The translations under genes and the position numbers were made by a program. A DNA stretch of 64,000 nt, taken from the NCBI GenBank assembly GCA_013178155.1, contig JABLXH010000002.1:116523-180522 (forward strand), given 5' to 3'. This stretch comes from Armatimonadota bacterium (GTDB lineage: Bacteria > Armatimonadota > Zipacnadia > Zipacnadales > UBA11051). The notes beneath the pieces were generated by a model. The model was not told the origin of the DNA. It saw nothing but the letters and a program-made list of their open reading frames with translations, and did no database searches. Shown one piece after another: positions 29,031 to 54,229 of this stretch (its first letter is position 1; each line of letters opens with the position of its first letter).

Positions 29031-29834
29031 ATGACCGGTTACCGCCGTCTGCCTGCTCTGCTTCTCCCCAGCGCCCTGGCGCTGCTTGTCTGCCTGGTGG
29101 GCTCTTGCCAACAGCCCGGCCTAGAAGGCACCACCAGTGATGCCGAGGCTAAGGTAGACGTCCTGAGCCAGGACATTCAGATCCTTTACACCCTCAACCG
29201 TCTCGATCTCAAACCCGAGCAATACACCACCTTACTGGGGATCATTGACCGCATGGCGGCGGAGGTGGCGCCGGCGCAGGCCCAGCGCGAGGCCGCCCTC
29301 AAGGAACTGGCGCCGCTGCTGAGCCAGAAGCGAGCCGCGTTGCTTGAGGACAAGGAGCCGGGGGAAGAGCTGGAGGACCAGATCCGGGAAGTACAGGGGC
29401 GCGCCGACGACGCCTATGGGTTGGAGGTCGAGACCCGGAGCAAGTACGCCGCAGAGTTCCGCAAGGCGCTCAGTCCGGAGCAGACAGCCATCATCACCGG
29501 TGCTGACGAGGCAGCCACGCAGGCGGCCGAACTCCTGAACTGGATCCGGGAGCTACCTGAAGCGGAGTATGCCGAGGAAGCCGAGGCCAATGCCCAGGAA
29601 CTGGCTGACCCGGAGGTGGGTCTGAATGCCGAAGCCATCCTCCGCATCTTCTCGGAAGCCCGCAAGCTGAGTGCCGAGGAGTATGCACAGAAGCTGCCCG
29701 GGTTCACCACGGAACTGGCGAAGATCTATATGCCCATGCCTGACGCCGCTGACGAGTCGCTTGCCGACTGGTTCGGTGCGCCACGTTTGGCGGTGTTGCT
29801 ACGGGAGCGGGCGTCGAAGCTGGGCGGACAGTAG
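29031..29834 (+). CDS. Hypothetical secreted/lipoprotein, alpha-helical (Glu/Ala-rich)
   Basis: Signal peptide ending LLVCLVGSC (marginal lipobox). Coiled-coil-like, acidic. Confidence 0.5.
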   Translation: MTGYRRLPALLLPSALALLVCLVGSCQQPGLEGTTSDAEAKVDVLSQDIQILYTLNRLDLKPEQYTTLLGIIDRMAAEVAPAQAQREAALKELAPLLSQKRAALLEDKEPGEELEDQIREVQGRADDAYGLEVETRSKYAAEFRKALSPEQTAIITGADEAATQAAELLNWIRELPEAEYAEEAEANAQELADPEVGLNAEAILRIFSEARKLSAEEYAQKLPGFTTELAKIYMPMPDAADESLADWFGAPRLAVLLRERASKLGGQ

Positions 29835-32361: not shown

Positions 32362-33192
32362 TCAGGCAGTGCGCCAGGGGACCGGCAGCGACACAGCCGG
32401 CGTGACTTTGGCCGCCGGGGCGGTCTTGAGATGGGCCCCCGCCAGGTTCCAGATGGTGTTGACGACGACGATTGCGGCGGCCAGGATGGCAGCGTAGATC
32501 ATCATGGAGCCCAGCGAGTTGGTGTCCTGATCCTTGGAAAGCTTGAACAGTATGCCCATGATGAGACCTAGCGGGGGACAGAAGAAGGCACCGATGACGA
32601 GGCCGATCATGGTGAAGACTGCTACGCCGACGACATTGGGCACCTGGCCCCGGGCCACGGCAGTGATGGCCGCCGAAACCGCCCACAGACGAAGCCCCTC
32701 GCCGATGAGGCAGAGAAAGGCCGCCAGCGCCAGCCCAGCACAGACGATGAACATGATGCGCGGGTCGGAGAACAGTCCGAAGCCGAGTGCCTTGAACTGG
32801 GCGTAGGTTAGCGTCTTGATGGTGGCAAAGCCACCTGCGCTGCCCAGGAAACCCTTGGCCGCTGCGGCGAGGCCGCCGGTGAAGGCCGCCGCAAGAATGG
32901 CTGCCACCACGATCGCCGGCCGTTGCTTCCGCAGCTCCTGGGCCTGCTGCTTGTCAAAGACGCGCAGACGCTTCTCCTCGGCGCTCTCACCCGGTGCAAC
33001 CAGGCCCGCAGCCGCCGGATTGGCCGCCGCGGCCGCTCCAGTGGCTGGCTTGGCCACCGTGCGAGCATTCTGTTGGGCCTGCTTGACGATATCCACCCGC
33101 GCCTGTACGAGATCGAGACCGCAGTCAAGACACTGGGTATCAGTCTGGCTGACCTTGGCCCCGCACTTGGGGCAGTTGCTCATGACACGCAT
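32362..33192 (-). CDS. Zinc-ribbon membrane protein (hypothetical)
   Basis: CPKCG ... CLDCG zinc ribbon followed by about four TM helices. Start set at ATG 33192 with GTGAGG RBS. Confidence 0.5.
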   Translation of the reverse strand: MRVMSNCPKCGAKVSQTDTQCLDCGLDLVQARVDIVKQAQQNARTVAKPATGAAAAANPAAAGLVAPGESAEEKRLRVFDKQQAQELRKQRPAIVVAAILAAAFTGGLAAAAKGFLGSAGGFATIKTLTYAQFKALGFGLFSDPRIMFIVCAGLALAAFLCLIGEGLRLWAVSAAITAVARGQVPNVVGVAVFTMIGLVIGAFFCPPLGLIMGILFKLSKDQDTNSLGSMMIYAAILAAAIVVVNTIWNLAGAHLKTAPAAKVTPAVSLPVPWRTA

Positions 33193-33377
33193 CGACACAG
33201 CCTCACAGGAAGAATGTCTCCCACGGGAGGCGATTATAGCAGACAGCGAAGGCGTGACCAACAGGGATTGTGGTGCCTTGCCGGCCAAGCCAGAAAAGCC
33301 CGGCGCCGAGGGAGGTCCAGAAGCGCTCGCCGGTGAACTGAAACTCTCAACACGCGGTCAGGAGGCCTCTCGGGGCA

Positions 33378-35375
33378 GTGGCAGAAGCTGAAGCCAGCAT
33401 CGATACCACCCACGAACAGGTAGTGTTGGGAGGCGGAGAGCGTCTGTCAGCTGCTACCGTCATTGTGGCGGTGGGTTTCCTGGGCCTGTCTCTGTTTTGG
33501 ATGCTGCAGGCAGGGATCATCTCGCACGGGGTACAGTTGGGCGAGAGCGTGCCGGTGGTGCCGGCGGTTGGGGCGCTGTTAGTCTTGACAGTGCTGGGCC
33601 TTACGCTCCGGCGGCTGGGCTGGCGCTGGCGCGTGCCACCGGGCCAGGTCCTTTACATCTACTGCTTCCTGTGCGTGGCGGTGACCATGAACTCGGTGGG
33701 CGTGGCGCGGATGCTGTTTCCTGAAGCCACGGCGGTCTACTATTTCGCCACGCCCGAGAACGACTTCGAGACACTGCAGAAGTACATGCCCACCTGGTTG
33801 GCCCCGCAGGATCCCAAGGTCATCCAGGAGATGTACGAGGGCGCTGCCGACGAGAAGGTGCCGTGGAAGCCCTGGCTGCGGCCCCTCTTCTTTTGGACCC
33901 TGTTTCTGGGCGGTCTGTTCGTGTCCATGCAGGGGATGACGGCACTCTTCCGACGGCAATGGGCGGACAAGGAGCGCCTGACCTTCCCTATCGTGCAGCT
34001 CGTCCTGGACATCGCCGACCAGGAGGGGCGACGGGTAGTGGGGGGCTTCTTTGGCAACCCGCTCATGTGGGTTGGGTTTGGCATAGCGGCTCTGTACAAC
34101 GTTGGTAACATCCTGAACGCCTGGAATCCGGCCGTGCCGGCCATGGGTCGGGAGTACGCTATCGGGCGGTTCTTCACCGAACGGCCGCTTTCGGCGATCA
34201 ACCCGCTCAGCATCGCCTGGCGACCCGAGAACATTGGACTGGGCTACCTGGTGCCGACGGAGATCACGCTGTCGGTGTGGGTGTTCTACCTGGCCCTGCG
34301 CATCTCCAACGTTATCGCGACGGCGGGCGGATACGAGATTGCCGGTTTCCCGTTTGATCGGGAGCAATCGGCGGGATCGTACCTGGTGTTGGCGCTCTTT
34401 CTGATCTGGGTGGCGCGGGACCATCTCAAGGCCGCCTTCGCAACCGCCTTCACCGCGCATCGGCCGCTTGATGACCGCGGCGAGCCCATGTCGTATCGAA
34501 TGGCCTTCCTGGCGACCTTCGGAGGGCTGGCGCTCATGCTGGCGATTGCCCTCAAGGCCGGGATGTGGCTGGGCACCGCACTCATCTACTTTGGTCTCGT
34601 GCTGCTCTTTGCGCTGGTGTACGCCAGGGCGCGGGCGGAAGCGGGCGCAGCCATGGTGTGGCTGTTTCCGTTCTACCTGCACAAACAGATGATGATCCAC
34701 GTGGCCGGGTCGGAGCCCTTCTCGCGGGGCGGTAACTGGAGCAACCTGACCATGCTCTCCACCTTCATGTTCATCTCCCGGGGCTTCTTCCAGTCCCTGA
34801 TGGCCTACCAGATGGAGAGCACCAAGATCGCGCAGGAGGCGCGGCTGCGACAGCGAACAATGGTCGTGTGGCTGCTGAGCGCGCTGGTGCTGGGGTTGTT
34901 GGGAGCCTATGTGACCCACTTGCACGCCTACTACACCCACGGGGCGAACATCCTGGAGGGGGGCAGCACCGAGGGTGGCTATCGGGTGATGCTGGCTCGC
35001 CAGGAGTTTGAGGAGCTCTCCAGCTTCCTGAAGGCCCAGCGCCCACCAGACCTGGCGCGCACGTGGGCGGGCCTCTTTGGCGCGGTCTTCACCCTGGGGC
35101 TGATACTGGTGCGCACGTACTCGCTGCGCTTTCCGCTTCACCCGCTGGGTTTCGCCATGGTTACCTCTTACGGCGGACCGCTGTGGGGGCCGTTCCTGCT
35201 GGTGTGGATCGTCAAGACCGTGGTGTTGCGGATCGGCGGGATGCGCGCCTACCGACGTGGCATTCCGTTTTTCCTGGGGATCGTGATGGGCCACTTCTTC
35301 GTGGCTGGTCTCATCTGGGGCTGGTTGAGTATCATCAATGAGATGTACCGTCGCTACGTCGTGCATTTCGGCTAG
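33378..35375 (+). CDS. Large polytopic membrane protein, unknown family (paralog A; about 13-14 TM)
   Basis: Shares WADKERLTFPIVQL, PTEITLSVWVFYL and PLHPLGFAMVTSY motifs with the 54230-56218 protein. Start uncertain. Confidence 0.6.
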   Translation: MAEAEASIDTTHEQVVLGGGERLSAATVIVAVGFLGLSLFWMLQAGIISHGVQLGESVPVVPAVGALLVLTVLGLTLRRLGWRWRVPPGQVLYIYCFLCVAVTMNSVGVARMLFPEATAVYYFATPENDFETLQKYMPTWLAPQDPKVIQEMYEGAADEKVPWKPWLRPLFFWTLFLGGLFVSMQGMTALFRRQWADKERLTFPIVQLVLDIADQEGRRVVGGFFGNPLMWVGFGIAALYNVGNILNAWNPAVPAMGREYAIGRFFTERPLSAINPLSIAWRPENIGLGYLVPTEITLSVWVFYLALRISNVIATAGGYEIAGFPFDREQSAGSYLVLALFLIWVARDHLKAAFATAFTAHRPLDDRGEPMSYRMAFLATFGGLALMLAIALKAGMWLGTALIYFGLVLLFALVYARARAEAGAAMVWLFPFYLHKQMMIHVAGSEPFSRGGNWSNLTMLSTFMFISRGFFQSLMAYQMESTKIAQEARLRQRTMVVWLLSALVLGLLGAYVTHLHAYYTHGANILEGGSTEGGYRVMLARQEFEELSSFLKAQRPPDLARTWAGLFGAVFTLGLILVRTYSLRFPLHPLGFAMVTSYGGPLWGPFLLVWIVKTVVLRIGGMRAYRRGIPFFLGIVMGHFFVAGLIWGWLSIINEMYRRYVVHFG

Positions 35376-35450
35376 AGGCGGTGGCCGGGACGACAGGCGG
35401 ACCAGGTCGGACCGGTCTCTCGCGGCGGTGTCGTCCACAGGAGAGATACG

Positions 35451-38400
35451 ATGGCTGCACGCAACTGCTGGAAGTCAACCCTGGGGTGGAGCATGGCCTG
35501 TCTGGCGTTGGTCGGGGCCTTAGCCAGCCTGGCGCCGGCGGCGATGGATTATGAGGCCCTGGCCTCGCAGATTGATATGGGGCGCCTCGTGCGGGACCTG
35601 CGGGCCATGGAGGCCCTTGGATCGCGTGTAGTTGGATACCCGGGCAATGCACGCGCCGCTGCGATGATCCAGGAGGAGTTCGAGCGCCTCGGTCTGGAGA
35701 CGATGGTCCAGGAGTACGATCTGCCGTCGCCCGTGGATTACGGCAGCAAGCTGCGGTTGGGTGATCGCGAATACGATCTGTCGGCCCTCTGGCCCAACCA
35801 TGTCCGAACGTGCCAGGTCCCGGCCGCGGGTCTCACCGGCCCCGTCATTTACGTCGGCGCCGGTTCGCTGGCCGACTTTAACGGTAAGGACACGGCCGGG
35901 GCCATCGTACTGATGGACTTTAACACCCAACAGAACTGGCTGAACGTGCCCCTGCTGGACGCCGCAGCGGTGATCTTCGTTGAGCCCCTGAGCATGACCC
36001 GCGGCGAGGCGGAGATGAAGTTCGTCCGGGCGCCCATCAATGTCCCCCGGTTCTATCTCCGGGGCACCGATGCAGCGGAGGTGCTCGCCAAGGTGGCGGA
36101 GCAGCCCGTCACCGGCACCATCAGCGCCGACGAACCACTCCGCTGGCGCAGCACCGTCAACCGCAACATCATCGGTATTCTCCCTGGCAAGGGGGGAACG
36201 CTGAGGGAAGAGCCCATCGTCCTGCAGGCTTACTATGACTCGGTCTCGGTAGTGCCCAGGCTGGCGCCCGGAGCGGAGAACGCCACGGGTATCTGTGCGT
36301 TGTTGGAGCTGGCGCGGCTGCTCACTCGCCCGGAGTATCGGCCGCAGCGCACGGTCATCTTCCTGGCCACCAGTGGGCACTTCCAGGCGCTCGCCGGTAC
36401 GCGGGAGTTTCAGGCGCTTTGGGGACGGGAGCCCCGCAAGGAGCGCAATCGCCTGGACCAGCTCAGGAAGCTCGAAGAGGAGCTGGACGAGCTCAACAAG
36501 CTCAAGGAGAAGCTCACCAGGGACCTTGCCAAGCTCAGCGAGGCGCGGGCCCAGATCACCTCGGAGACGACGTTCTTTAAGAATGTCGTTAACGTTGGGC
36601 AACTGGAGTTGTCACCCGAGGTCGCGGAGCTTCGTCTGGCCCGCCTGGATCGGGACATCAAGCGCAAGCAAGACTATATCGCTATCTGGAAGAAGCTGGA
36701 CTCGCTGGGCAAGATCCAACTGTTCATCGGCCTGGACCTGAGCACCCGCAGCGGCGCTCTGGGCCCCTTCCAGTCGGGCTGGTACTACAACCAGTCCCAT
36801 CTGCTGCGGTTCTACTCGCCTCTGGGCAAGCAATTCGCCCAGTACGCTTCGGCGGCCGCCGAGGCCCTCGGGTACAACACGGCGGATGTGTTCGTAGATG
36901 GGATCAACCCGGTCAAGGGCCGCGAGTGGCACACCTTCTTCCCGGGCAAGGTGGCCTTTGACCACGAGATGATCATCAGGGGAGGGCGGCCGGGCATTGT
37001 TCTGGCTACCGTCAACGACGGGCGACCCCTGGTGGATACGCCGCTGGACACCGTAAGCAATCTCGACCTGGCCAATCTGGAGACCCAGGTGCGGATGCTG
37101 GCGTGTATGCTGACCAGCTTCCTGAGCGATGAGACGCTGGGAGACAAGGCGCTCAAGCGCATCCGGGCGCTGAAGAAGATGGACGACCTCAAGGACATCC
37201 TGGGCACCGTGCTGGAGTTCCGTCGCCGCGACAGCTTTGTGCCTAACACCCCGGTTCCCGGCTCGCTGGTGGTCATTCAGGGCAGCTATCGGATGATGAT
37301 GGGTGTGCACACCGAAGTGCTGGCCATGGCCAATGAGACCAGTGAGTTCCTGATGCGGGGCGAAGTCGGTGGGGGCAGTATCCTGGAGGCCTACAACTTT
37401 GACAATGGTACCGGGGACGTCATCTATGCCCCGGATATGGGTCCGGACGGCGACAAGAAGTACCCACGGACGGTCCAGGGGCGGGCCGGACTGAAGCGCC
37501 CCATCATCGTCTTCAACTGCGTCCCCACTGACATCTTCGACCTCGTGGATGAGCGGTATTTCCAGACCCTGCAGAAGGTCTTCATCTACGACGCCAAAGA
37601 CTACTCGGAGCCGATCTCCTTCGGCTACAGTCTGTCTTCCATGGGAGCGTCGGCCTCGGAGTTTCCATCGTTCGTCGAGCCAGTGGGGACGATCTTCTCG
37701 ATGCCCGAGGTGGATGTCCAGGTCACCATGTCCATGGGCCTGCTGGGTGTGCGCCTGGTGCTCATCAACTCAACCGATGACCGCCCCACGGGCGTGGGCT
37801 TCCCGGCGCGGACGACACGTCGGATCGCTCTCACCCCACTTCAGGTCGGGAAGGACATGTGGCAACTGGACGAGTTCCGCATGGCCAGACTGCGGGCACG
37901 GGGCATCCAGAACGCCCGGCTGGAGCGACTGCATACCGCTGCCGCAGAATCACTTAAGGTCGCGCAGGAGGAGTTGAAGGCCCGACGCTATGACCTGGGG
38001 GTCTCGGCGGCCCGCCACGCGTGGGGCTATGAGTCCCGGGCCTACCCGGATGTGCAGAAAACGGCGATTGACGTGGTGAAGGGTGTGCTGTTCTATCTGG
38101 CGATGCTGTTGCCCTTCGCCTACTTTGGCGAGCGCCTGCTGATCGCCTCGCGCACCATCGTCGGCACCATCCTGGGCACGCTGGGTGTCTTCCTGGTGGT
38201 GTTCTTCGGGTTGGCGATGGTGCACCCGGCCTTCACTCTCACCGCCAACCCCCCCATCATCCTGCTGGCATTCATCATCATGGCCTTGGCGGTGATGGTC
38301 ATCGCGATCGTCACCATGAAGTTCAACCAGGAGCTCAAGTCCATGAAGCAGGCGCGGGGTGGGGTGCACGAGGCGGATGTGGGACGGCTGTCCGCCGCTT

Positions 38401-40181
38401 CTGCGGCGTTCAGCCTGGGCATCGCCAACATGCGGCGGCGCAAGCTGCGCACCGCGCTGACGGCGACGACGCTGGTGCTTCTCACCTTCACGGTGCTGAG
38501 TTTCACCTCGGTCCGAGAGAGCCTGCGTACCAACGAGATACGCTTGCCCCACAAGCCTGGTTATCAGGGTGTCATGTTGCGCGACCGCGCCTGGCTGTCG
38601 CTGGAGGAGCCTACGGCCTACATTCTGAAGAACGAGTTGCACAAGGTCGGGACTGTCGCCACCCGGTCGTGGTACACCTCCGGCCAGATCGACAAGGAGG
38701 CGATGATAGACGTCACCAGCGCCGCTGACACCAGTAAGAAATACGTGGTGAGCTGCATCCTGGGGCTGACGCCGCAGGAAGAGGACGTGATGGACATCAA
38801 CCGGGCAGTGATGGCTGGGCGCTGGATCAAGCCGGGTGACAAGGATGTCTGCCTGCTGCCAGCCACGGTGGCCTCTGGCCTGGGTATCAGTGAGCAGCAG
38901 CTTGGGTCCGCGGAGGTCCTGGTCTTCGGTACGCGGTTCCGTGTCATCGGCATCGTCAGCGAGAATGCCATGCGCAAGATGCGGGACCTGGACGGCGAAC
39001 CAATGATGCCTGTGAACTACGCCCTGCTTCGGCCGGAGGTGCTCAAGGAGCTCCAGCGCCAGGCCGAGCAGCGGTCGCAGTTGGGACAGACCAATGCCCA
39101 GTCCTTGCTGCAGGAGTACAAGCATTTCGGCCCGGAGAAACTCATCATCCTGCCCTATGAGCAGACGCTGCAGTTGGGTGGTACATTGCGCTCGATCGCG
39201 GTCCGCTACGAGGACCCCGAGAAAGTGCTGCCCGACGTGCGACAGATGATGAACCGCTTTGCCCTCAGCCTCTATGCCGGATACAAGGACCAGACCCTGC
39301 TGTTCAGCTCCGTGGGGGTGACGTCCTTCTCTGGCCTGGAGGCGCTGGTCATCCCGATCCTCATCGCTGCCCTGATCGTGCTGAACACGATGCTGGGAGC
39401 GGTGCATGAGCGCGTGCGAGAGATCGGCATCTACAGTTCGCTTGGCCTGGCTCCGGTCCACGTCTCCATGCTCTTCCTGGCTGAGGCCTCGGTCTTTGCC
39501 AACCTCGGCGCCATCGTGGGCTACCTGCTGGGCCAGATCGTAACGAAGGTACTCTACGCCACCGGCAGCATGCATGGCATTGAGCTCAACTACAGCTCGA
39601 TGTCGGCGGTATCGGTGACGATCGTGGTTATTCTGGTGGTGTTGTTGTCCACGCTGTACCCATCCAAGAAGGCGGGGGAGATCGCCTCTCCGGGCATCGA
39701 GCGCAAGTGGTCGCTGCCGGAACCCGAGGGCGACCTGATGACGGTGGTGCTGCCCTTCACGGTGACCGGTCGCGATGCGTGGGGCGTGTCGGCGTTCCTG
39801 AAGGAGTTCTTCGACGAGTATGTGGGCTACGCGGGCGGGGAGTTCCTGGCCGAGGACGTCAAGCTGGAGCCGGTGGACTGCGAGCGCGGCAAGGGCATGC
39901 AGGTGTCGCTGCGCATGTGGCTGGCGCCCTACGACCTGGGCGTGAGCCAGGCGTTCCGCCTGACTTGTGAACCCACCGAGGACGGCGATATCTTCGCCAT
40001 CGTGATCCGTCTGGACCGCCTCGCCGGCGACATCACGTCCTGGAAGAAGACCAACACCCTCTTCCTGGCGGGCATTCGCAAGCAGTTCCTGATCTGGCGC
40101 ACGGTGCCGCAGGCTGAGAAGGTCGCCTACGCCGACCGAGCCGAGAAGATCCTGGCGGGTGAGGAGATCGAGGTGGCTTGA
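35451..40181 (+). CDS. Giant fusion protein: signal/anchor + PA-domain + M28-peptidase-like domain (degenerate metal/catalytic residues, coiled-coil insertion) + about 330-aa unknown domain + 3 TM + MacB/FtsX-type permease domain + about 160-aa C-terminal cytoplasmic domain
   Basis: AGGAGAG RBS. M28 N-terminal LRAMEALGSRVVGYPGN, PA-like DFNGKDTAGAIVLMDF, NRNIIGILPGKG...LQAYYDSV...GAENATG. Coiled coil RKLEEELDELNKLKEKL. FtsX TM1 ANMRRRKLRTALTATTLVLL and REIGIYSSLGLAPVHVSMLFLAEA. Confidence 0.75.
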   Translation: MAARNCWKSTLGWSMACLALVGALASLAPAAMDYEALASQIDMGRLVRDLRAMEALGSRVVGYPGNARAAAMIQEEFERLGLETMVQEYDLPSPVDYGSKLRLGDREYDLSALWPNHVRTCQVPAAGLTGPVIYVGAGSLADFNGKDTAGAIVLMDFNTQQNWLNVPLLDAAAVIFVEPLSMTRGEAEMKFVRAPINVPRFYLRGTDAAEVLAKVAEQPVTGTISADEPLRWRSTVNRNIIGILPGKGGTLREEPIVLQAYYDSVSVVPRLAPGAENATGICALLELARLLTRPEYRPQRTVIFLATSGHFQALAGTREFQALWGREPRKERNRLDQLRKLEEELDELNKLKEKLTRDLAKLSEARAQITSETTFFKNVVNVGQLELSPEVAELRLARLDRDIKRKQDYIAIWKKLDSLGKIQLFIGLDLSTRSGALGPFQSGWYYNQSHLLRFYSPLGKQFAQYASAAAEALGYNTADVFVDGINPVKGREWHTFFPGKVAFDHEMIIRGGRPGIVLATVNDGRPLVDTPLDTVSNLDLANLETQVRMLACMLTSFLSDETLGDKALKRIRALKKMDDLKDILGTVLEFRRRDSFVPNTPVPGSLVVIQGSYRMMMGVHTEVLAMANETSEFLMRGEVGGGSILEAYNFDNGTGDVIYAPDMGPDGDKKYPRTVQGRAGLKRPIIVFNCVPTDIFDLVDERYFQTLQKVFIYDAKDYSEPISFGYSLSSMGASASEFPSFVEPVGTIFSMPEVDVQVTMSMGLLGVRLVLINSTDDRPTGVGFPARTTRRIALTPLQVGKDMWQLDEFRMARLRARGIQNARLERLHTAAAESLKVAQEELKARRYDLGVSAARHAWGYESRAYPDVQKTAIDVVKGVLFYLAMLLPFAYFGERLLIASRTIVGTILGTLGVFLVVFFGLAMVHPAFTLTANPPIILLAFIIMALAVMVIAIVTMKFNQELKSMKQARGGVHEADVGRLSAASAAFSLGIANMRRRKLRTALTATTLVLLTFTVLSFTSVRESLRTNEIRLPHKPGYQGVMLRDRAWLSLEEPTAYILKNELHKVGTVATRSWYTSGQIDKEAMIDVTSAADTSKKYVVSCILGLTPQEEDVMDINRAVMAGRWIKPGDKDVCLLPATVASGLGISEQQLGSAEVLVFGTRFRVIGIVSENAMRKMRDLDGEPMMPVNYALLRPEVLKELQRQAEQRSQLGQTNAQSLLQEYKHFGPEKLIILPYEQTLQLGGTLRSIAVRYEDPEKVLPDVRQMMNRFALSLYAGYKDQTLLFSSVGVTSFSGLEALVIPILIAALIVLNTMLGAVHERVREIGIYSSLGLAPVHVSMLFLAEASVFANLGAIVGYLLGQIVTKVLYATGSMHGIELNYSSMSAVSVTIVVILVVLLSTLYPSKKAGEIASPGIERKWSLPEPEGDLMTVVLPFTVTGRDAWGVSAFLKEFFDEYVGYAGGEFLAEDVKLEPVDCERGKGMQVSLRMWLAPYDLGVSQAFRLTCEPTEDGDIFAIVIRLDRLAGDITSWKKTNTLFLAGIRKQFLIWRTVPQAEKVAYADRAEKILAGEEIEVA

Positions 40182-40209
40182 GGGCTCGGGCGCGGCACTG
40201 GAAGAAGCC

Positions 40210-40250
40210 AAACGGGGCGGTCACGGCGGTGGCCGCCCCGTTTCCGTTTC
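40210..40250. terminator. Bidirectional terminator-like hairpin between convergent genes
   Basis: 11-bp perfect stem AAACGGGGCGG / CCGCCCCGTTT followed by TTTCCGTTTC; A-rich on the other side. Confidence 0.45.
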
Positions 40251-40263
40251 AGGTGCGCAAGGA

Positions 40264-40833
40264 CTAGGCCGGCGGGGCTGCCAGGCGGCAGATCATGGCC
40301 GCCATGTAGCCGGCCCCAAAACCGTTGTCTATGTTGACCACAGCCAGTCCCGCGGCGCAGCTGTTGAGCATTGAGAGCAACGCCGCCACCCCGCCAAAGC
40401 TGGCGCCATATCCCACACTCGTCGGCACGCCAATGACCGGCTTGTCCACCAGCCCACCGACGACGCTGGCCAAAGCGCCCTCCATGCCCGCCACCACCAC
40501 AATGGCCCCCGCCGCTACCAGCTCGTCACGATGCCGCAGTAACCGATGCAGGCCGGAGACCCCCACGTCAAAGAGGCGTCGGGCAGGCACCGAAGCGGCC
40601 TCGATGACGGCGGCCGCTTCCTCGGCAACCGGAATGTCCGAAGTCCCGGCAGTGATGACCAAAGCCGGCGGGATGCCCGGACGGGGCGGATCGGGCTCGC
40701 CCAGGCGAATGATACGGGCCGTAGCGTCATAGGTGGCCTCCGGGCAGCGCTCACACACGGCGGCGTAGGCCTCTTCGTTGGCCCGCGAGTGGAGCCTCCC
40801 CGCAGGGCAGCAGCTCTTCCGGGCCGAACTCAC
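40264..40833 (-). CDS. PurE-like AIR-carboxylase family protein (LarB / NCAIR-mutase-related)
   Basis: [17 protein letters not shown]...[17 protein letters not shown]...[10 protein letters not shown] PurE-fold motifs. Shorter than typical LarB (true start may be upstream). Confidence 0.6.
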
Positions 40834-42360: not shown

Positions 42361-43944
42361 TTGTCCAGCAAACTGGTGTCGGTGGAAGAGGCCGTGGCCC
42401 GCATCCCCAATGGCGCGACCGTCGGGGTGGGCGGGTTCGTCGGGGCGGGGCATCCGGAGGCGCTGACCGAGGGCATCGAACGGCGCTTCCTGGACGAGGG
42501 CCGCCCGCGCGACCTGACGGTCCTCTACGCCGCCGGACAGGGTGACGGTCAGGCGCGGGGCATCAACCACCTGGCGCACGAAGGGCTCGTGAAGCGGGTC
42601 ATCGGGGGCCACTGGGGGCTGTGTCCGGCCCTGGGACGGCTGGCGGTCGAGGGCAAGGTGGAGGCGTACAACTGGCCTCAGGGCGTCATCTGCCATCTGC
42701 TGCGCGACATCGCCGCCGGACGACCGGGAGCCATCACCCATATCGGCCTGAAGACCTACGTGGACCCGCGCCATGGCGGCGGGAAGCTCAATGAGCGGAC
42801 CACAGAGGACCTGGTGGAGATTGTGCACCTCGCGGGGCGTGAGTGGATGTTCTACCATGCCTTCCCCGTGCACGTGGCGCTGATCCGGGGGACCACGGCT
42901 GACGAGCGCGGCAACATTACCATGGAGCATGAGGCGCTCTTTGGCGACATGCTGGCGCTGGCACAGGCCGCACGCAATAGCGGGGGGATCGTGCTGGCCC
43001 AGGTCAAACGCATCGCCGCCGCGGGGAGTCTGCCTCCCCAGCAGGTGAGGGTGCCTGGCATCCTGGTGGATGCGGTGGTGGTGGCAGACGAAGAGCACCA
43101 CGGCCAGACCTTCGGCACCGCCTACAATCCGGCCTTCTCGGGCGCCATCCGGGTGCCGTTCGACAGTATCGAGTGGCTTCCCATGGACGAGAGAAAGGTG
43201 ATCGCACGGCGCGCGGCACTGGAACTGCGTCCAGGCGCGGTGATCAACCTGGGTATCGGCATGCCGGAGGGCATCGCCGCTGTAGCCAATGAGGAGGGCA
43301 TCGTCGGCAGCCTGACACAGACCGTGGAGGCCGGGCCGATCGGTGGCGTCCCCGCCAGCGGTCTGGACTTCGGCGCCGCCGCGAACCCCGAGGCCATCGT
43401 GGACCAGCCGGCGCAGTTTGACTTCTACGATGGCGGTGGCCTGGACCTGGCCTTCCTGGGCATGGCTCAGGCTGACGCGGCGGGCAATGTGAACGTCAGC
43501 AAGTTTGGCCCCAGGATCGCCGGCTGCGGTGGTTTCATCAACATCACTCAGACAGCGGCGAAGGTGGTCTTCTGTGGCACCTTCACCGCAGGCGGGCTGG
43601 AGGTAGCGGTGACCGACGGCCGCCTCCAGATCACCCAGGAGGGCAAGTACCACAAGTTCGTGCAGGCGGTCGAACACGTGACCTTCTCGGGTGAGTATGC
43701 CCGGGAGAAGGGCCAAAGCGTGCTCTATGTGACCGAGCGCGCGGTGTTTGAGCTGCGGGACGGGAGACTCTTGCTGACCGAGGTCGCTCCGGGGGTGGAC
43801 GTGGACGCCCAGGTGCTGGCCCAGATGGACTTCCGACCAGACGTTGCGCCCGATCTGCGTGACATGGACGCCCGCGTCTTCCGCGACATGCCGATGGGGC
43901 TGGGAGACGGGGATAGCAGGATAGGTGGGCCGTACCTCACATAG
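42361..43944 (+). CDS. Acyl-CoA:acetate/3-ketoacid CoA-transferase (fused alpha/beta subunits)
   Basis: TTG start per ORF track. [17 protein letters not shown]-terminal motif and an SENG-like [10 protein letters not shown] region. 527 aa, typical of the propionate CoA-transferase family. Confidence 0.75.
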
Positions 43945-44017
43945 GTCGGGCATCCGTGCGCGACAACACCACGACAGGCAAGATGCCTGTCCCACGCGCC
44001 AGAAAGGGGCCTTCGCC

Positions 44018-46525
44018 GTGAGGACCGTCTCGGCGGTCGCGCTGTGCCTGCTGCCATCGCTCGGCCTGGCGTATCACCCGGGGACCAACATCACGCGCGG
44101 CATCTACCTGAACCCGGCTCCCTTGATGAGCACCGGGCACTGGACGGCCTTCGGTGAGGGCTTCAGCTTCACCGAGGAGTCAGCGCACAGCGGACGAGCG
44201 AGCATCGAGTGCGTGCATCCAGGGCCGGGCGTCGAGGGGGTCGGAGCCGCGCAGGACGTGAAGGTCGGCCAGATCGCCCCTGCACCGCTGAGGATTTCAG
44301 GTTGGAGCAAGGCCGAAGGCGTCGTCGGTGCTGACAGGGCCTGGAATTACTCGGTCTACGCCGACGTGCGCTGCGCTGACGGCAGCAGTATCTACATGCA
44401 GATTGCCACTTTCAGCGGCGGTACCCACGACTGGGAATACGCCGAGACCGTCGTCGAGCCCAAGGCGCCGGTCACGACGGTCGCGCTCTACGTCTTCCTC
44501 CGTCAGGCCACGGGGAGGGTCTGGTTCGATGACATCTTCCTGGGGCCGGTGGACGGGCCAAACCTGGTGCGGAACCCCGGCTTTGAGCCCGAGGACCGGG
44601 TGGACGTGGCAGCCCGCGACGCCATGCTGCACACGCTGCAGGACCTGGGGGTCAACGCCCTGCACATCTACCTGTCCGGCAGTCCGGGTTACTGGCAGGG
44701 CAGCAACGGCCAGGGCAACGCCACCGTGTGGGACTTCCTGAAGCTCATGAGGGAGCGAGGGACCGGCGTGTGGGTTACGACCGGCGGGCCCGAGACGCCG
44801 GGCTTCGCCGACGCCGATGACCCCAACTTTCCGCAGTACGCCTGTGTCAATGGTCCGTGGGGAGAGGCCTGGGTCAAGACGCTGGGGCTGGCGGCGGCCT
44901 ATGACTTCGCGGGCATCTCGCTGGTGCCCGATGAGTACAACTGGCTCTACCACAGCCTGAGGGACGCCTACAGCAAGCACTCTGACCCCAGAGTGGCGGA
45001 GTTCTACCAGAAGCTGCCGGCGATGTGCGACTGTCCGGTCTGTCGGGAGCTCTACCGGACGAAGTTCGGCGCTGAGATGCCCACCCTGCCCCTCGACACC
45101 GTTTTTCCCCAGCAGAGCCAGGCGTACCGGGACTACCTCCGGCTGCGCTACGACAGCACCACGGAGTGGCTGCGACGGGGGGCACAGGCGGTGCATGGGG
45201 CCAATCCCCGCATCCGGGCGGACAGCCTCCTCTGTGTGTCGCCCATCTGTCACGATGACTGGTGGGGACCGGGCATCGCCTGGGACCGCCTGGGCGAGAC
45301 GGGCATTGACTTTCCGACAACCGACCCCTACATCCAGCTTCACAACTACCTCGGCGACAGCACCCACTGGTATGTGACCGAGACGGCCGCCCATCTGACA
45401 GCGGCGACACCGAAGCGACAGTGCGGGATTGTGCTGGAGGCCAGCCGGCTCTATCCGGAGTACCGCGAGATAGACCCGGTGGAGGCCTACGGGAGCGCGC
45501 TCAGCGCCGTATGCCACGGGGCGAAGGAGCTGGCCTGGTGGTACTACACCAACCTGACCGGAGAGAGTGGTGTTACCGGCCGCCCCGAGGTGTACTACGC
45601 CTGCCTCAAAGGGCTCTACGGCCTGCTCGCGCAGGCGGACACCTGGCTTGGGGGCCTGCACCCATACCAGCCGGTGGCATTGCTGTACTCGCGGGCCAGC
45701 GACGATTGGTGGCGGTTCTACTCGCAGCCGGAACCCACGGCCTTCCTGCAGCCACCGGTCAGAGATGCGCGCCATGCCAACGTGGCGCAGAAGGAAGTGC
45801 TTTACTACCTCTTCCGCCGCGGAGTGCCGACTGCCCTGCACTACCTGGAGAGTGTGACCGCAGAGCAGTTACGCGGCTACCAGGCCATCGTGGTGCCCTT
45901 CCCATTGGCGATCAGCGACCAGCAGGCGGCCCTGCTGCAGCAGTTGGCGAGGAGTGGCAAGCGGACCGTTGTCGTCTCGCAGAACGGCCCACTGGATGAC
46001 TTTGGCGCCTTGCGCGAGCGGCCGGCGCTGTCCGGCATGGTCCAGGGCGCAGAGGGGCCGAACGGGCGGCGGTTCGGCCGGGGCCGCGTGTGGTTTCTGC
46101 GGGATGACTTCGGCTATCGGCTGGTTGCCCACGGCGACAACCAGAAGCGCACGCGAGCGGAGCGTATCCAGCCCGACCCCATCGCGGCAGAGCCAGCCGC
46201 CGCTTTCGACCGCATCCTGCGTGCCGCCTGCGGGCATGAGCCCTGGGTGCTGGAGCAGTTGCCCTCCGCCGACCTGGAAGCGACGGCGCTGACCAATGCC
46301 CAGGGCGATCTGGTGGTGCTGACGACGAACTGGACCGATACCCCACAGCGCTGCCGGATCCGGCTGCCGCGGGTGGGCGGCTCCACGCTGTACGGCTTCC
46401 GCCTGGGACCGCGGGGACACTGGGCGCGCGACAGCGTGGGTCTGGAACTCAGGGCCGAGGAATACGTGGGGGACGTGGACCTGGGGCCGCAGGAGGCCTG
46501 TCTGTGGCGCATGCCAGTGCGCTGA
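44018..46525 (+). CDS. Secreted glycoside-hydrolase-like protein (CBM-like N-terminus, TIM-barrel, GH42-type trimerisation-like C-terminal region)
   Basis: GTG 44018 with AGAAAGGGG RBS gives signal peptide VRTVSAVALCLLPSLGLA. C-terminal GYQAIVVPFPLAISDQQAALLQQLARSGKRTVVVS resembles the GH42 trimerisation module. Confidence 0.5.
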   Translation: MRTVSAVALCLLPSLGLAYHPGTNITRGIYLNPAPLMSTGHWTAFGEGFSFTEESAHSGRASIECVHPGPGVEGVGAAQDVKVGQIAPAPLRISGWSKAEGVVGADRAWNYSVYADVRCADGSSIYMQIATFSGGTHDWEYAETVVEPKAPVTTVALYVFLRQATGRVWFDDIFLGPVDGPNLVRNPGFEPEDRVDVAARDAMLHTLQDLGVNALHIYLSGSPGYWQGSNGQGNATVWDFLKLMRERGTGVWVTTGGPETPGFADADDPNFPQYACVNGPWGEAWVKTLGLAAAYDFAGISLVPDEYNWLYHSLRDAYSKHSDPRVAEFYQKLPAMCDCPVCRELYRTKFGAEMPTLPLDTVFPQQSQAYRDYLRLRYDSTTEWLRRGAQAVHGANPRIRADSLLCVSPICHDDWWGPGIAWDRLGETGIDFPTTDPYIQLHNYLGDSTHWYVTETAAHLTAATPKRQCGIVLEASRLYPEYREIDPVEAYGSALSAVCHGAKELAWWYYTNLTGESGVTGRPEVYYACLKGLYGLLAQADTWLGGLHPYQPVALLYSRASDDWWRFYSQPEPTAFLQPPVRDARHANVAQKEVLYYLFRRGVPTALHYLESVTAEQLRGYQAIVVPFPLAISDQQAALLQQLARSGKRTVVVSQNGPLDDFGALRERPALSGMVQGAEGPNGRRFGRGRVWFLRDDFGYRLVAHGDNQKRTRAERIQPDPIAAEPAAAFDRILRAACGHEPWVLEQLPSADLEATALTNAQGDLVVLTTNWTDTPQRCRIRLPRVGGSTLYGFRLGPRGHWARDSVGLELRAEEYVGDVDLGPQEACLWRMPVR

Positions 46526-50582: not shown

Positions 50583-50586
50583 ACTC

Positions 50587-53500: not shown

Positions 53501-54138
53501 CCCAACACCTGCCGGAGCTGCGGTCGGCCTATGAGGGCACCTTCTTCCTTGACGCGGACGTGGGCTTTGTCACGGAGCGCACTACTCTGGAGAACGGCCT
53601 TGCGGGCAGGAAACTGCTGATTGTGCCCGCGGCCTCGCACGTGCCACCGCCGGTCGTAGCGGCTGTCCGCCAGTGGGTGGAGGCCGGGGGCACCCTGTGG
53701 CTGGTCGGTGATTGCCTGACGCATGACACGGCCAACCAGCCGCTGGCGGCCCTCACTGACCTGGAGCCGGCCCGGCTCGAGGGCGAGACCATCCAACGTG
53801 CAGACCTGGGCCAGGGGCTGGTGGTGCAGACCGTGGACCGGCGTGATACGGGCGTGTACCGGCGCCTGGGCGAGGCGATGTTTGGCAAGGCAGGAGTGAC
53901 CCGTGCCCTGCGAGTGGTTGGTGCGGCCGGCGAGCCGGTGGATGGGGTGGAGTTCCGAACGGCGACGCACGACGGCAGCGTCCTGGCGTATGCGCTCAAC
54001 ATGAACAAGGCGCCGGTGACGCTGATGGTCAGCGGCGCCGAAGGTGGCATCCGGGACTTGCGCACGGGGACAAGGCGGACGTGGCCGCTGACCCTGGCGC
54101 CACTGGAGCTTGTCTTTGGGGTGCTGGACAAGCGGTGA
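50587..54138 (+). CDS. Secreted CBM9-like + GH42-like beta-galactosidase-family protein (1183 aa)
   Basis: Start moved to ATG 50587 (signal MRALGAVLWTLALAGAWGAAPAA). CBM9-like block (YDCVQMAFDAAHD...YEVRIPW). GH42-like core and trimerisation motif LLIVPAASHVPPPVVAAVRQWVEAGGTLWLVGD. Confidence 0.6.
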   Translation: MRALGAVLWTLALAGAWGAAPAAEVLTYKLLGTPDPAATGGEAKRLDAEGIYCWWDGPALKPGYFEVVARARTVGAAGVLQFVLCQSGKDAPPLYPVSRTQRGEVTTPEYAEIYCGTFYWDGSYTPRVSDWSSGGLMVDWVKLVPVPLAAIRDPDPGQIKRVLAPRFPTPPAIDGELSEWAQVPALALGPGVARGSRYGGSSDLTALCRWAWDDRALYFAAQVQDDHATFLPDPRELGDLWQYDCVQMAFDAAHDARTPGYDDDDYEYGFGQTASGPRAYRWVTGNNLVLGDVPTVTVGVERDEGRAITTYEVRIPWTELLPFSPTTRSCGMTVVVDDNDGEAAQESWLEWTPGITGPKDPSAFGLLTLIDEPPAATEVIAWLAGESDQSDREQSRFVLNVNSPRPLGPVTVEWVLRADDRELTRAQRAAELNAAADQVPLELDLSAIGQGRFTLRAALLRGAETVATAELPFARYAIADLQQRLERLRARQEQLWQRCEAWRAQGGHGWYPRATLGVVFEFVRNTADDLDKRLCERAEAVMADLERMLDEAESELNALQAGQATDWPMSPMVRERLTVREGGFWEGDQPVFLIGFCGWWQVWTECRRLADYGMNHAEESIVAPFALLPAPDGDPPQAMLEANEWAWERGDEKGFRYSRMVACNQLPASFREKYPEAGGGGWGGVSTLQPAVRDFERRYLSIITGAAAKYVSPGVYVLYGENTHTLSRHPLEVAAFQTWLQERYGSIAALNAAWGTAYPDFTAVGNGEDASGPVAWYDRGIFNQKLFTDWSAWLVRTAKENDPQALCTGYPSLLSWDDSSDFSAGIDMEALCRVFDVNGFDTAALDYGGKQWAMNSITGFAMPQELLRAFNPDHPNYDPELHMVNLKQLYPPEYIRAAMWQGFLHGLSASSLWVYQRSEGIDSMLTFQPRVMEEYLRTGLDLRRLVAPVRAFQRAREEVAILYSLTSIAYNAQHLPELRSAYEGTFFLDADVGFVTERTTLENGLAGRKLLIVPAASHVPPPVVAAVRQWVEAGGTLWLVGDCLTHDTANQPLAALTDLEPARLEGETIQRADLGQGLVVQTVDRRDTGVYRRLGEAMFGKAGVTRALRVVGAAGEPVDGVEFRTATHDGSVLAYALNMNKAPVTLMVSGAEGGIRDLRTGTRRTWPLTLAPLELVFGVLDKR

Positions 54139-54229
54139 AGTCCGCTGTAAGCTAAGTGCCTACGATGATCCAGGAGCGACCCTTGGTGGTCGCTCCGTCG
54201 TTGCCTACCCGAGTTTCCGGAGTGCTGCA

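What the first reader, a model, noticed from the sequence alone, without database searches (positions are those of the whole stretch)
35451..40181. 1576-aa single-polypeptide fusion of a PA/M28 peptidase-like ectodomain with a MacB/FtsX-type permease domain, with no ABC ATPase in the neighbourhood
FtsX/MacB/LolCE-type permease domains are normally separate 4-TM proteins, or fused to an N-terminal cytoplasmic ABC ATPase. Here the FtsX module carries the basic pre-TM1 motif NMRRRKLRTALT near nt 38430, a periplasmic domain of about 270 aa, and the REIGIYSSLGLAP...FLAEA signature near nt 39417. It forms the C-terminal half of a protein whose N-terminal about 500 aa is an extracytoplasmic PA-domain/M28 aminopeptidase-like module. 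A further roughly 330-aa unassigned domain and three extra TM helices sit in between. The C-terminal about 160 aa (nt 39690-40181) is cytoplasmic with no Walker A, so no ATPase is encoded in the protein or within at least 5 kb either side. I do not recognise this architecture as a described system. A peptidase-like ectodomain hard-wired to a mechanotransmission-type permease would be a new variant of the FtsEX-EnvC / MacB theme.
Basis: partly seen in the sequence, partly recalled or inferred. Interest (0 to 1): 0.85.

Follow-up and report, generated by a model that had tools for sequence, protein, structure and literature searches.

The report
Giant pseudo-peptidase fused to MacB/FtsX permease
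This is a real 1576-residue membrane protein that fuses an aminopeptidase-shaped but probably catalytically dead outer domain to a MacB/FtsX-type "mechanical" ABC-transporter permease; it belongs to a large, uncharacterised family that always sits beside a peptide-transporter-like membrane protein, and whose ATPase motor is encoded next to it in sister lineages but not in this one.

Summary
ORF 35451-40181 is a single gene. It is conserved at full length in at least 577 species genomes (Armatimonadota, Latescibacterota, Gemmatimonadota, WS1, Poribacteria).

- signal peptide
- PA-inserted M28 fold whose canonical zinc and catalytic residues are replaced
- coiled-coil hairpin
- beta-rich domain
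- helical bundle
- three extra TM helices
- canonical type VII (MacB/FtsX/LolC) permease with a MacB-like periplasmic domain
- family-specific cytoplasmic C-terminal domain, tentatively helix-grip/START-like

There is no ABC ATPase anywhere in the 64 kb window. That does not make the family ATPase-free. Sister clades keep a LolD/MacB-class ATPase and a 240-aa mini-FtsX in the same operon. The closest sequenced genome carries such a paralogous locus. The coupling-helix motifs are equally conserved in every clade.

A polytopic partner is almost always adjacent: DUF6785/DUF6784 here, a divergent OPT "peptide transporter" elsewhere.

Best reading: the large permease subunit of an undescribed type VII ABC mechanotransmission system, with a built-in pseudo-peptidase effector and its ATPase supplied in trans. 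Verdict: new variant of a known kind, function untested.

The parts
33378..35375 (+). Partner gene: a 665-aa polytopic membrane protein (DUF6785 + DUF6784), 75 nt upstream and on the same strand.
   Evidence: Pfam DUF6785 E 1.8e-122 and DUF6784 E 2.4e-21. About 11 hydrophobic segments. It lies directly upstream of the giant gene in 18 of 19 loci of the window's clade. It is distantly related to the OPT-like type B partner of other clades (hhalign probability 81.6%, E 1.1e-5).
35451..40181 (+). The whole 1576-aa ORF, including the stop codon.
   Evidence: Full-length homologues at 36-94% identity.
35451..35543 (+). N-terminal signal peptide or anchor (aa 1-31).
   Evidence: Hydrophobic segment at aa 10-28. 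Helix 7-25 with low pLDDT.
35544..36440 (+). PA-inserted M28 fold, N-terminal half (aa 32-330). It carries the degenerate motifs AYYDS, PGAENATG and TSGHF.
36456..36704 (+). Coiled-coil hairpin inserted into the M28 fold (aa 336-418).
   Evidence: AF2 helices 336-368 and 389-418, pLDDT 78-97. Poorly conserved in sequence.
36720..37130 (+). M28 fold, C-terminal half (aa 424-560). Asp429 is invariant and the fifth-ligand position 505 is variable.
37188..37820 (+). Beta-rich extracytoplasmic domain (aa 580-790), with no family assignment.
   Evidence: AF2 strands 581-771. No Pfam hit even at E 10. Many invariant residues.
37833..38087 (+). Three-helix bundle next to the membrane (aa 795-879). Its last helix runs into the first extra TM helix.
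   Evidence: AF2 helices 795-816, 822-843 and 847-879. Invariant A864 Y865 P866 T871 D874 V875 G878.
38088..38312 (+). Three extra TM helices that precede the FtsX module (aa 880-954).
   Evidence: Hydropathy peaks at 872-890, 903-921 and 936-954. AF2 helices. Conserved in all clades.
38313..38456 (+). Cytoplasmic linker and the amphipathic helix before TM1, with the basic motif NMRRRK (aa 955-1002).
   Evidence: AF2 helix at model residues 120-137, which is aa 979-996. The motif is conserved in every clade.
38457..38513 (+). FtsX/MacB TM1 (aa 1003-1021).
38523..39317 (+). MacB-type periplasmic core domain (aa 1025-1289).
39327..39686 (+). FtsX TM2, the coupling helix (ERVREIGIYSSLGLAP), TM3 and TM4 (aa 1293-1412).
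   Evidence: Pfam FtsX at aa 1300-1408. phmmer to MacB 5lil and LolC. E1320 R1321 E1324 I1327 G1332 are invariant. The motif is equally conserved in all clades.
39690..40178 (+). Family-specific cytoplasmic C-terminal domain (aa 1414-1576), with the hallmark motifs WLAPYDLGVSQ and IRKQFLIWRT.

Best explanation
The gene encodes the large transmembrane subunit of a previously undescribed type VII (MacB/FtsX/LolCE-type) ABC mechanotransmission system.

Shown:
- A canonical 4-TM FtsX module is present, with a MacB-like periplasmic domain and an intact coupling helix.
- About 850 extracytoplasmic residues and three extra TM helices precede it. These comprise a PA-inserted M28 fold that lacks the canonical co-catalytic zinc site, a coiled-coil hairpin, a beta-rich domain and a helical bundle.
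- A conserved cytoplasmic domain follows it.
- A polytopic partner is almost always adjacent: DUF6785/6784 here, a divergent OPT-type 'peptide transporter' in other clades.

Inferred:
- ATP binding and hydrolysis by a LolD/MacB-class ATPase drives the stalk helices and the periplasmic domain. That ATPase is encoded in trans in this lineage, most likely at a paralogous locus together with a 240-aa mini-FtsX.
- The motion is passed to the hard-wired pseudo-aminopeptidase module. That module acts as a ligand-binding receptor or effector, not a canonical exopeptidase. This parallels FtsEX acting on the coiled-coil plus degenerate-peptidase protein EnvC, except that here everything is one polypeptide.
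- Because the partner is OPT-like and sister-clade operons carry a PqqD-type peptide chaperone, the substrate is most likely a peptide or peptide conjugate handled at the cytoplasmic membrane or periplasm. The substrate is the weakest step.
For: - ATPase linkage in the family. An ABC ATPase lies directly upstream together with a mini-FtsX in clade 7 (12 of 15 by my HMM scan, plus L088). It lies 3.6-5.8 kb downstream in clades 6 and 8. These ATPases score best against LolD, MacB-NBD, YbbA, DevA and FtsE models and are 72% identical between clades.
- ATPase in trans is plausible. GCA_021372615.1 holds both the syntenic orthologue of this gene (78% identity) and a paralogous locus ordered mini-FtsX, ABC, giant, type B partner. 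Two other MAGs also carry both types.
- No relaxation of the NBD-facing elements. The pre-TM1 motif, the coupling helix and the CTD motifs are equally conserved in ABC-linked and ABC-unlinked clades.
- Partner. A type A or type B gene is adjacent in nearly all loci that have enough flank. Type B hits Pfam OPT above cutoff in one member and collinearly in another, and NCBI names several 'peptide transporter'. Types A and B are linked by hhalign.
Against: - No ATPase, mini-FtsX, PqqD-like or 330-aa accessory gene occurs in the 64 kb window.
- None lies within 10 kb in any of the 19 loci of this clade, nor in the 26 Latescibacterota/Gemmatimonadota-clade loci. Two large clades have therefore lost linkage consistently, which would also fit ATPase independence.
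- Co-occurrence of the two locus types was seen in only three genomes and was not tested systematically.
- No contact between the ectodomain and the periplasmic domain, or between the CTD and an NBD, was modelled. The two halves were predicted separately, and the C-terminal half has pTM of only 0.44.
- The coiled-coil hairpin is poorly conserved.
- An invariant constellation (Y261, Y262, D263, H310, D429, E506) could be a remodelled catalytic site rather than a binding site.
- The OPT link for the type A partner in this window is only indirect.
Confidence: 0.55

Rival explanations
1. This is an ATPase-independent permease. In this clade and in the Latescibacterota clade, the giant protein, perhaps as a homodimer together with the DUF6785 partner, works without any ABC ATPase. 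The conserved cytoplasmic C-terminal domain (helix-grip/START-like) would replace the NBD as a ligand-gated or dimerising driver, or the protein would serve as a static scaffold or receptor.
For: No ATPase in 64 kb. None within 10 kb in 19 plus 26 loci of two clades. The CTD is the most diagnostic and most highly conserved part of the family. It has a fold class known for binding small hydrophobic ligands (tentative).
Against: The CTD is equally present and conserved in the clades that do carry an adjacent ATPase, so it is not a substitute that arose with loss of the ATPase. The coupling-helix motif ER.REIG, which contacts the NBD in type VII transporters (established knowledge; MacB review PMC5985334), stays invariant. 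The closest genome has an ATPase and mini-FtsX at a paralogous locus.
Confidence: 0.2
2. This is an extract-and-hydrolyse machine. The M28-like domain would be catalytically active through a remodelled site, for example a mononuclear metal held by Glu276, His310 and Asp429. The type VII permease would deliver membrane- or periplasm-derived substrate to it, as YbbAP does for the lipid hydrolase TesA.
For: The pocket residues Y261, Y262, D263, H310, D429 and E506 are invariant in 47 of 47 sequences, which argues for a functional site. The fold is complete. A type VII ABC paired with a hydrolase has a precedent (PMC12646458, title and abstract). M28-fold glutaminyl cyclases are among the top structural neighbours.
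Against: Three of the first four canonical catalytic or ligand positions are replaced, including the general-base Glu. The fifth ligand position is variable. Membrane-complex pseudo-M28 proteins also appear among the hits: nicalin by sequence, and transferrin receptor and GAA1 by structure. No activity can be inferred from sequence.
Confidence: 0.15
3. This is a peptide natural-product (RiPP) export and maturation system. The PqqD-like protein and the unknown 330-aa protein of the sister-clade operons would modify a precursor peptide, which the ABC system would export and the M28-like domain would trim.
For: A PqqD-family (RiPP recognition element) gene lies in the clade 6, 8 and 1 operons. 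MacB-type pumps do export peptides (established knowledge).
Against: No conserved precursor-like small ORF was found. None of these accessory genes is in this window. The system is single-copy, syntenic with housekeeping genes such as rho, and conserved across phyla with 72% identical ATPases. That pattern is unlike sporadic biosynthetic clusters.
Confidence: 0.07
4. This is an assembly or annotation artefact: two genes, an M28 lipoprotein and an FtsX permease, joined by a frameshift or misassembly.
For: None beyond the unusual length.
Against: The frame is continuous. Eighty-six independently assembled loci from several phyla encode the same 1500-1900-aa protein. The junction region (aa 795-1000) contains many invariant residues.
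Confidence: 0.01

Closest known systems
MacB (MacAB-TolC) and the MacB/type VII ABC superfamily
   Different: There is no fused N-terminal NBD and no adaptor or TolC genes nearby. It adds an 850-aa ectodomain, three extra TM helices and a 160-aa cytoplasmic C-terminal domain. All NCBIfam MacB, LolCE and FtsX models score far below their cutoffs.
FtsEX-EnvC (also FtsEX-PcsB, RipC and CwlO)
   Same: A type VII module is associated with a coiled-coil element plus a peptidase-fold domain that lacks catalytic residues. EnvC is a coiled coil plus a degenerate LytM domain (PMC7668044). The mechanotransmission logic is the same.
   Different: Here the effector is covalently fused and N-terminal. Its fold is M28/PA, not M23/LytM or CHAP. 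The coiled coil is a short hairpin inserted in the M28 fold. The periplasmic domain resembles the MacB type. No amidase or cell-division genes are nearby. Contact between the hairpin and the periplasmic domain was not tested.
LolCDE
   Same: In sister clades the system is one ATPase gene plus two unequal FtsX-type permeases (giant plus mini-FtsX), as with LolC and LolE using LolD. The adjacent ATPases score best on the LolD model.
   Different: The second permease lacks a periplasmic domain; it has only an Ala/Glu-rich loop of about 60 aa. All scores are below the LolC, LolD and LolE equivalog cutoffs. There is no LolA/LolB context.
YbbAP-TesA
   Different: YbbP is a duplicated FtsX permease with a separate, active lipid hydrolase partner. 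Here there is a single FtsX module with a fused, canonically inactive M28 fold.
PA-domain M28 aminopeptidases (Aneurinibacillus AM-1 aminopeptidase 2ek8, Aeromonas AAP 1rtq, Shewanella 3iib)
   Different: The canonical His-Asp-Glu-Asp-His zinc ligands and the catalytic Glu are not conserved. There is an 80-aa coiled-coil insertion. The domain is tethered to a 7-TM region.
Membrane-complex pseudo-M28 proteins (transferrin receptor, nicalin, GPI-transamidase GAA1; nicastrin from my own knowledge)
   Different: Those are eukaryotic single-pass proteins and none is fused to a transporter module. The relationship is at fold level only.

Membership tests
Type VII ABC transporter permease (FtsX/MacB/LolCE superfamily) | C-terminal FtsX domain (TM2-TM4) recognised by PF02687 above the gathering score. 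| tested here: met
Type VII ABC transporter permease (FtsX/MacB/LolCE superfamily) | Large extracytoplasmic domain between TM1 and TM2 with the MacB periplasmic-core fold. | tested here: met
Type VII ABC transporter permease (FtsX/MacB/LolCE superfamily) | Cytoplasmic coupling helix between TM2 and TM3, and a basic amphipathic segment before TM1 (the NBD docking elements). | tested here: met
   ERVREIGIYSSLGLAP aligns with MacB's ERTKEIGVRMAIGAR. It is invariant or near-invariant in 47 sequences and in all clades. Actual docking was not tested.
Type VII ABC transporter permease (FtsX/MacB/LolCE superfamily) | A cognate ABC ATPase, either fused or encoded with the permease. | tested here: inconclusive
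   Absent from the ORF and from the 64 kb window, and from all 19 loci of this clade. Present next to the gene in clades 6, 7 and 8. Present at a paralogous locus in the nearest genome. The source genome outside the window could not be searched.
MacB proper (NF007826, fused NBD-permease) | N-terminal NBD fused to the permease; full-length match to the equivalog model. | tested here: not met
   18.5 bits against a cutoff of 966, C-terminal region only. No Walker A in the ORF.
LolC/LolE and FtsX equivalogs | Full-length match above the NCBIfam cutoff. | tested here: not met
   lolCE 25.8 against 362; LolC 22.1 against 473; FtsX models 17-21 against 225-250.
M28 metallo-aminopeptidase (MEROPS M28, PF04389) | The M28 alpha/beta fold. 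| tested here: met
M28 metallo-aminopeptidase (MEROPS M28, PF04389) | Co-catalytic zinc ligands His, Asp, Glu, Asp, His and the catalytic Glu. | tested here: not met
   Relative to 2ek8, the His ligand is Tyr261, the bridging Asp is Glu276, and the Glu-Glu pair is His310-Phe311. Y261 and H310 are invariant; position 505, the presumed last His, is His in 18 of 47. Placement of the last two ligands is inferred from motif position, not from a residue-level structural alignment.
PA (protease-associated) domain insertion | PA domain inserted in the M28 fold. | tested here: inconclusive
FtsEX-EnvC-type amidase-activator systems | A coiled-coil partner bound by the FtsX periplasmic domain, and control of a cell-wall hydrolase. 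| not testable with these tools
   A coiled-coil hairpin exists. No multimer or full-length model was possible, and no hydrolase genes are linked.
OPT oligopeptide transporter family (PF03169), for the adjacent partner | Match to PF03169 above the gathering score. | tested here: inconclusive
   The type B partner P0351 scores 37.5 bits against a cutoff of 25.8. L079's type B partner scores 24.8 bits over a different, collinear part of the profile. Eight other type B members give no hit. The type A partner in this window (DUF6785/6784) gives no OPT hit. It is linked to type B only by hhalign, probability 81.6% over about 190 residues.
SRPBCC / Bet v 1 / START-like helix-grip fold, for the C-terminal domain | Helix-grip fold with a ligand cavity. 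| tested here: inconclusive

The most novel reading that the evidence does not exclude
The giant protein and its OPT-like/DUF6785 partner would form the core of a so-far undescribed envelope machine. It is widespread in Armatimonadota, Latescibacterota and their neighbours. In it, a type VII ABC-type module moves a pseudo-aminopeptidase 'hand' that captures or gates peptide-like cargo for the neighbouring channel. In this clade and in Latescibacterota it would run without a dedicated ABC ATPase, using the conserved START-like cytoplasmic domain instead. That would make it the first ATPase-free type VII mechanotransducer.
Probability: 0.15. Interest if true: 0.85.

Novelty: new variant of a known kind. 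Interest (0 to 1): 0.6.

Why it matters
Only a handful of type VII ABC systems are understood: MacAB, LolCDE, FtsEX, YbbAP, and the Bce and Hrt types. Each has shown a different way of turning cytoplasmic ATP hydrolysis into work outside the membrane.

This family adds a version in which the extracytoplasmic effector is built into the permease. That effector is a peptidase fold stripped of its canonical catalytic site plus a coiled coil, reminiscent of EnvC. The family also carries an unexplained conserved cytoplasmic domain and is paired with an OPT-like transporter.

It is present in hundreds of species of poorly studied phyla, including cultured Chthonomonas, so it is open to experiment. 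It could reveal a new envelope or peptide-handling pathway. It also offers a natural test of whether type VII permeases can share an ATPase in trans or do without one.

Tried and rejected
- Two genes or a frameshift: rejected.
- ATPase hidden in the window: a six-frame Walker A/LSGGQ scan and tblastn with the sister-clade ATPase, mini-FtsX, PqqD-like and 330-aa proteins found only Rho's P-loop and the giant's own FtsX domain.
- Pfam on the isolated middle domain, the CTD and the M28 C-terminal half at E<=10: nothing.
- PDB sequence search with the M28 C-terminal half: only chance ADAM17 hits.
- Profile searches of both partner families against PDB sequences: nothing.
- Promoter and terminator scan of 33000-40600: no more sites than in shuffled sequence, so uninformative.
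- All-versus-all clustering of flanking ORFs: noisy because of alternative-frame ORFs in GC-rich DNA. It was useful only for spotting the PqqD-like cluster.
- Small ORFs upstream of sister-clade operons as candidate precursor peptides: not conserved.
- Literature: no paper mentions DUF6785 or DUF6784, and none links M28 with FtsX in this sense.
- AFDB fold search: the library was not available.
- A direct OPT signal in the window's own partner (type A): not found.
Full report
**1. Observation**

The window contains one uninterrupted ORF, ATG 35451 to stop 40181, 1576 aa.
- Pfam places FtsX (PF02687) at aa 1300-1408, 51.9 bits.
- Pfam places Peptidase_M28 (PF04389) at aa 239-322, 45.5 bits, covering only the first 78 of 193 profile positions.
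- NCBIfam gives only weak partial hits of the C-terminal region to ADOP, LolCE, LolC, FtsX and MacB models, all far below their cutoffs. No dedicated model exists.
- A six-frame scan for Walker A and LSGGQ motifs over all 64 kb finds no ABC ATPase. The only convincing P-loop is in Rho.

The description is therefore correct, and the absence of an ATPase extends 35 kb upstream and 24 kb downstream.

**2. One gene, and a large family**

A search of 5.8 billion proteins returned more than 100 full-length clusters of 1500-1700 aa at 39-94% identity. Most are from Armatimonadota MAGs and are auto-named 'M28 family peptidase' or 'FtsX-like permease family protein'.

These include Armatimonadota (Chthonomonas calidirosea, Fimbriimonadaceae, Capsulimonadaceae, Fervidibacter), Latescibacterota, Gemmatimonadota, WS1 and Poribacteria.

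The C-terminal 167 aa alone find 990 clusters at 50% identity with E<=1e-10. The match is always at the C-terminus of proteins of about 1450-1900 aa. Shorter hits look like fragments.

Conservation is high along the whole length, including the junctions between modules. A fusion artefact is excluded.

**3. Anatomy**

Ectodomain. AlphaFold2 on aa 1-880 with a 47-sequence alignment gave a confident model, pLDDT 89.7 and pTM 0.89. Its parts are:
- signal or anchor helix
- M28 fold with a PA-type insertion (aa about 32-330 and 424-560)
- two-helix coiled-coil hairpin inserted in the M28 fold (336-368 and 389-418)
- beta-rich domain (about 580-790)
- three-helix bundle (795-879) that continues into the membrane

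C-terminal half. The model of aa 860-1576 is less confident overall (pLDDT 75.3, pTM 0.44) but good in the periplasmic domain and the C-terminal domain. Its parts are:
- three extra TM helices
- amphipathic helix before TM1
- TM1
- periplasmic domain of about 265 aa
- TM2, coupling helix, TM3, TM4
- beta-alpha-beta4-alpha-alpha domain

Hydropathy agrees with a signal peptide plus seven TM helices. The topology puts the 850-aa module and the MacB-like domain outside and the C-terminal domain inside.

**4. The M28 site**

The alignment to the PA-aminopeptidase 2ek8 gives these replacements:
- zinc-ligand His: Tyr261
- bridging Asp: Glu276
- catalytic Glu: His310
- ligand Glu: Phe311

In 47 homologues, Y261, Y262, D263, H310, D429 and E506 are invariant. 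E276 is present in 42 of 47 and F311 in 38 of 47. The position I take as the last His ligand (505) is His in only 18 of 47.

By the defining criterion of M28 enzymes this is not a member. It has the fold without the co-catalytic site. The invariant pocket shows that the site is still used, either for binding or for a non-canonical chemistry.

**5. Context in the window**

The upstream genes are rho, a 267-aa unknown, a GT4 glycosyltransferase, a GFO/IDH/MocA oxidoreductase and a divergent zinc-ribbon protein. Then comes a 665-aa polytopic DUF6785+DUF6784 protein at 33378-35375, on the same strand, with a 75-nt gap before the giant gene. Downstream, the next gene is convergent (AIRC-like). This order is syntenic with GCA_021372615.1.

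**6. Context in the family**

I fetched 88 loci and scanned them with my own HMMs. I then clustered the giant proteins by their C-terminal 720 aa. A polytopic partner of about 650-830 aa is almost always adjacent.

| Clade | Loci | Partner | ABC ATPase |
|---|---|---|---|
| 4 (the window's) | 19 | type A (DUF6785/6784) directly upstream in 18 of 19 | none within flanks |
| 3 | 3 | type A upstream | none |
| 5 | 3 | type A about 3 kb upstream in two loci; type B downstream in the third | none |
| 7 | 15 | type B (no Pfam hit) directly downstream | directly upstream, with a mini-FtsX of about 240 aa |
| 6 (includes Chthonomonas) and 8 (Poribacteria) | 18 and 1 | type B downstream | 3.6-5.8 kb downstream |
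| 1 (Latescibacterota and Gemmatimonadota) | 26 | type B downstream, and often type A upstream | none within 10 kb |

The gene order in clades 6 and 8 is: giant, B, unknowns including a conserved protein of about 330 aa, PqqD-like, mini-FtsX, ABC. Clade 1 also carries the 330-aa and PqqD-like genes.

Types A and B are remote homologues (hhalign probability 81.6%, E 1.1e-5, including a shared ERLxFP motif). Type B is a divergent OPT-family transporter. One member scores 37.5 bits on PF03169 against a cutoff of 25.8. Another scores 24.8 bits over a different, collinear part of the profile. NCBI names several 'peptide transporter'. Type A shows no direct OPT signal.

The adjacent ATPases score best on the LolD, MacB-NBD, YbbA, DevA and FtsE models, that is, the type VII class. 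They are 72% identical between clades 6 and 7.

**7. Where is the ATPase for this gene?**

It is not in the window. Three observations bear on the question.
- GCA_021372615.1 carries the syntenic 78%-identical orthologue and also a paralogous clade-7 locus ordered mini-FtsX, ABC, giant, (toxin-antitoxin insertion), type B. Two Zipacnadia MAGs likewise carry both types.
- The elements that face the NBD in type VII transporters are as conserved in the ATPase-unlinked clades as in the linked ones. These are the pre-TM1 basic helix and the ER.REIG coupling helix.
- The C-terminal domain is present and conserved in all clades, so it did not arise as a replacement for a lost ATPase.

Together these favour an ATPase supplied in trans. 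That remains an inference. Two large clades have consistently unlinked loci, and I could not search whole genomes.

**8. Mechanism proposed**

Shown: the type VII permease fold, the MacB-type periplasmic domain, the fused pseudo-M28/PA ectodomain with a coiled-coil hairpin, the conserved partner, and the ATPase plus mini-FtsX in sister operons.

Inferred:
- The protein pairs with a second FtsX-type subunit (the mini-FtsX, or itself) and two LolD-class NBDs.
- ATP-driven movement of the TM1/TM2 stalk and the periplasmic domain is transmitted to the covalently attached ectodomain.
- The ectodomain binds rather than cleaves its ligand.
- Because of the OPT-like partner and the PqqD-type peptide chaperone in the fuller operons, the cargo is probably a peptide or peptide conjugate.

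The closest functional analogy is FtsEX-EnvC (PMC7668044), with YbbAP-TesA (PMC12646458) as the analogy if the domain turns out to be catalytic.

**9. Comparison and novelty**

It works like, and its C-terminal half is a member of, the type VII ABC permease superfamily. It is not MacB, LolC/E or FtsX by their family models. It is not an M28 peptidase by the catalytic criterion.

No curated family covers the beta-rich domain, the extra TM helices or the C-terminal domain. No paper was found.

I rate it a new variant of a known kind. It is a widespread, multi-component, unstudied type VII system with a hard-wired pseudo-peptidase effector.

**10. Limits**

- The two halves were modelled separately.
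- No multimer modelling was possible.
- The AFDB library was unavailable.
- The helix-grip assignment for the CTD and the placement of the last two M28 ligands are tentative.
- Co-occurrence of the two locus types rests on three genomes.
- The substrate is conjecture.

Noticed in passing
window 54110-56218 (+), with 50449-54138 and 47859-50582: A second DUF6785+DUF6784 gene (E 1.2e-125 and 8.9e-27) sits directly after a 1229-aa CBM9/GH-like ORF and a 907-aa beta-helix/CBM ORF. DUF6785 proteins therefore also occur away from the giant gene, next to glycan-active proteins.
   Followed up: partly
window 43925-46525 (+) and 29031-29834 (+): An 866-aa ORF and a 267-aa ORF have no Pfam match. The 267-aa gene is syntenic in GCA_021372615.1, between rho and the GT4 gene.
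   Followed up: no
L088 15000-15654 (GCA_021372615.1): A nucleotidyltransferase/HepT-like toxin-antitoxin pair is inserted between the paralogous giant gene and its type B partner.
   Followed up: no
L043 16782-19982; L003 19338-20785; L054 17185-18532: Sister-clade operons carry a conserved unknown protein of about 330 aa (25-30% identity across phyla, no Pfam hit) and a PqqD-family protein between the type B partner and the mini-FtsX/ABC pair.
   Followed up: partly
L007 6080-6796, L088 8160-8882, L043 19979-20704: A mini-FtsX of about 240 aa has, in place of the periplasmic domain, an Ala/Glu-rich loop of about 60 aa. It keeps the SVTERFREIGTMK coupling helix.
   Followed up: partly
L007 6848-7756: The clade-7 ATPase in this locus has an N-terminal extension of about 50 aa with weak zinc-ribbon hits (PF23470, E 0.0039).
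   Followed up: no
L003 10001-17131 (Poribacteria): A 2376-aa version of the giant protein has an added N-terminal region with a faint LysM hit. Other family members reach 2400-3050 aa.
   Followed up: no
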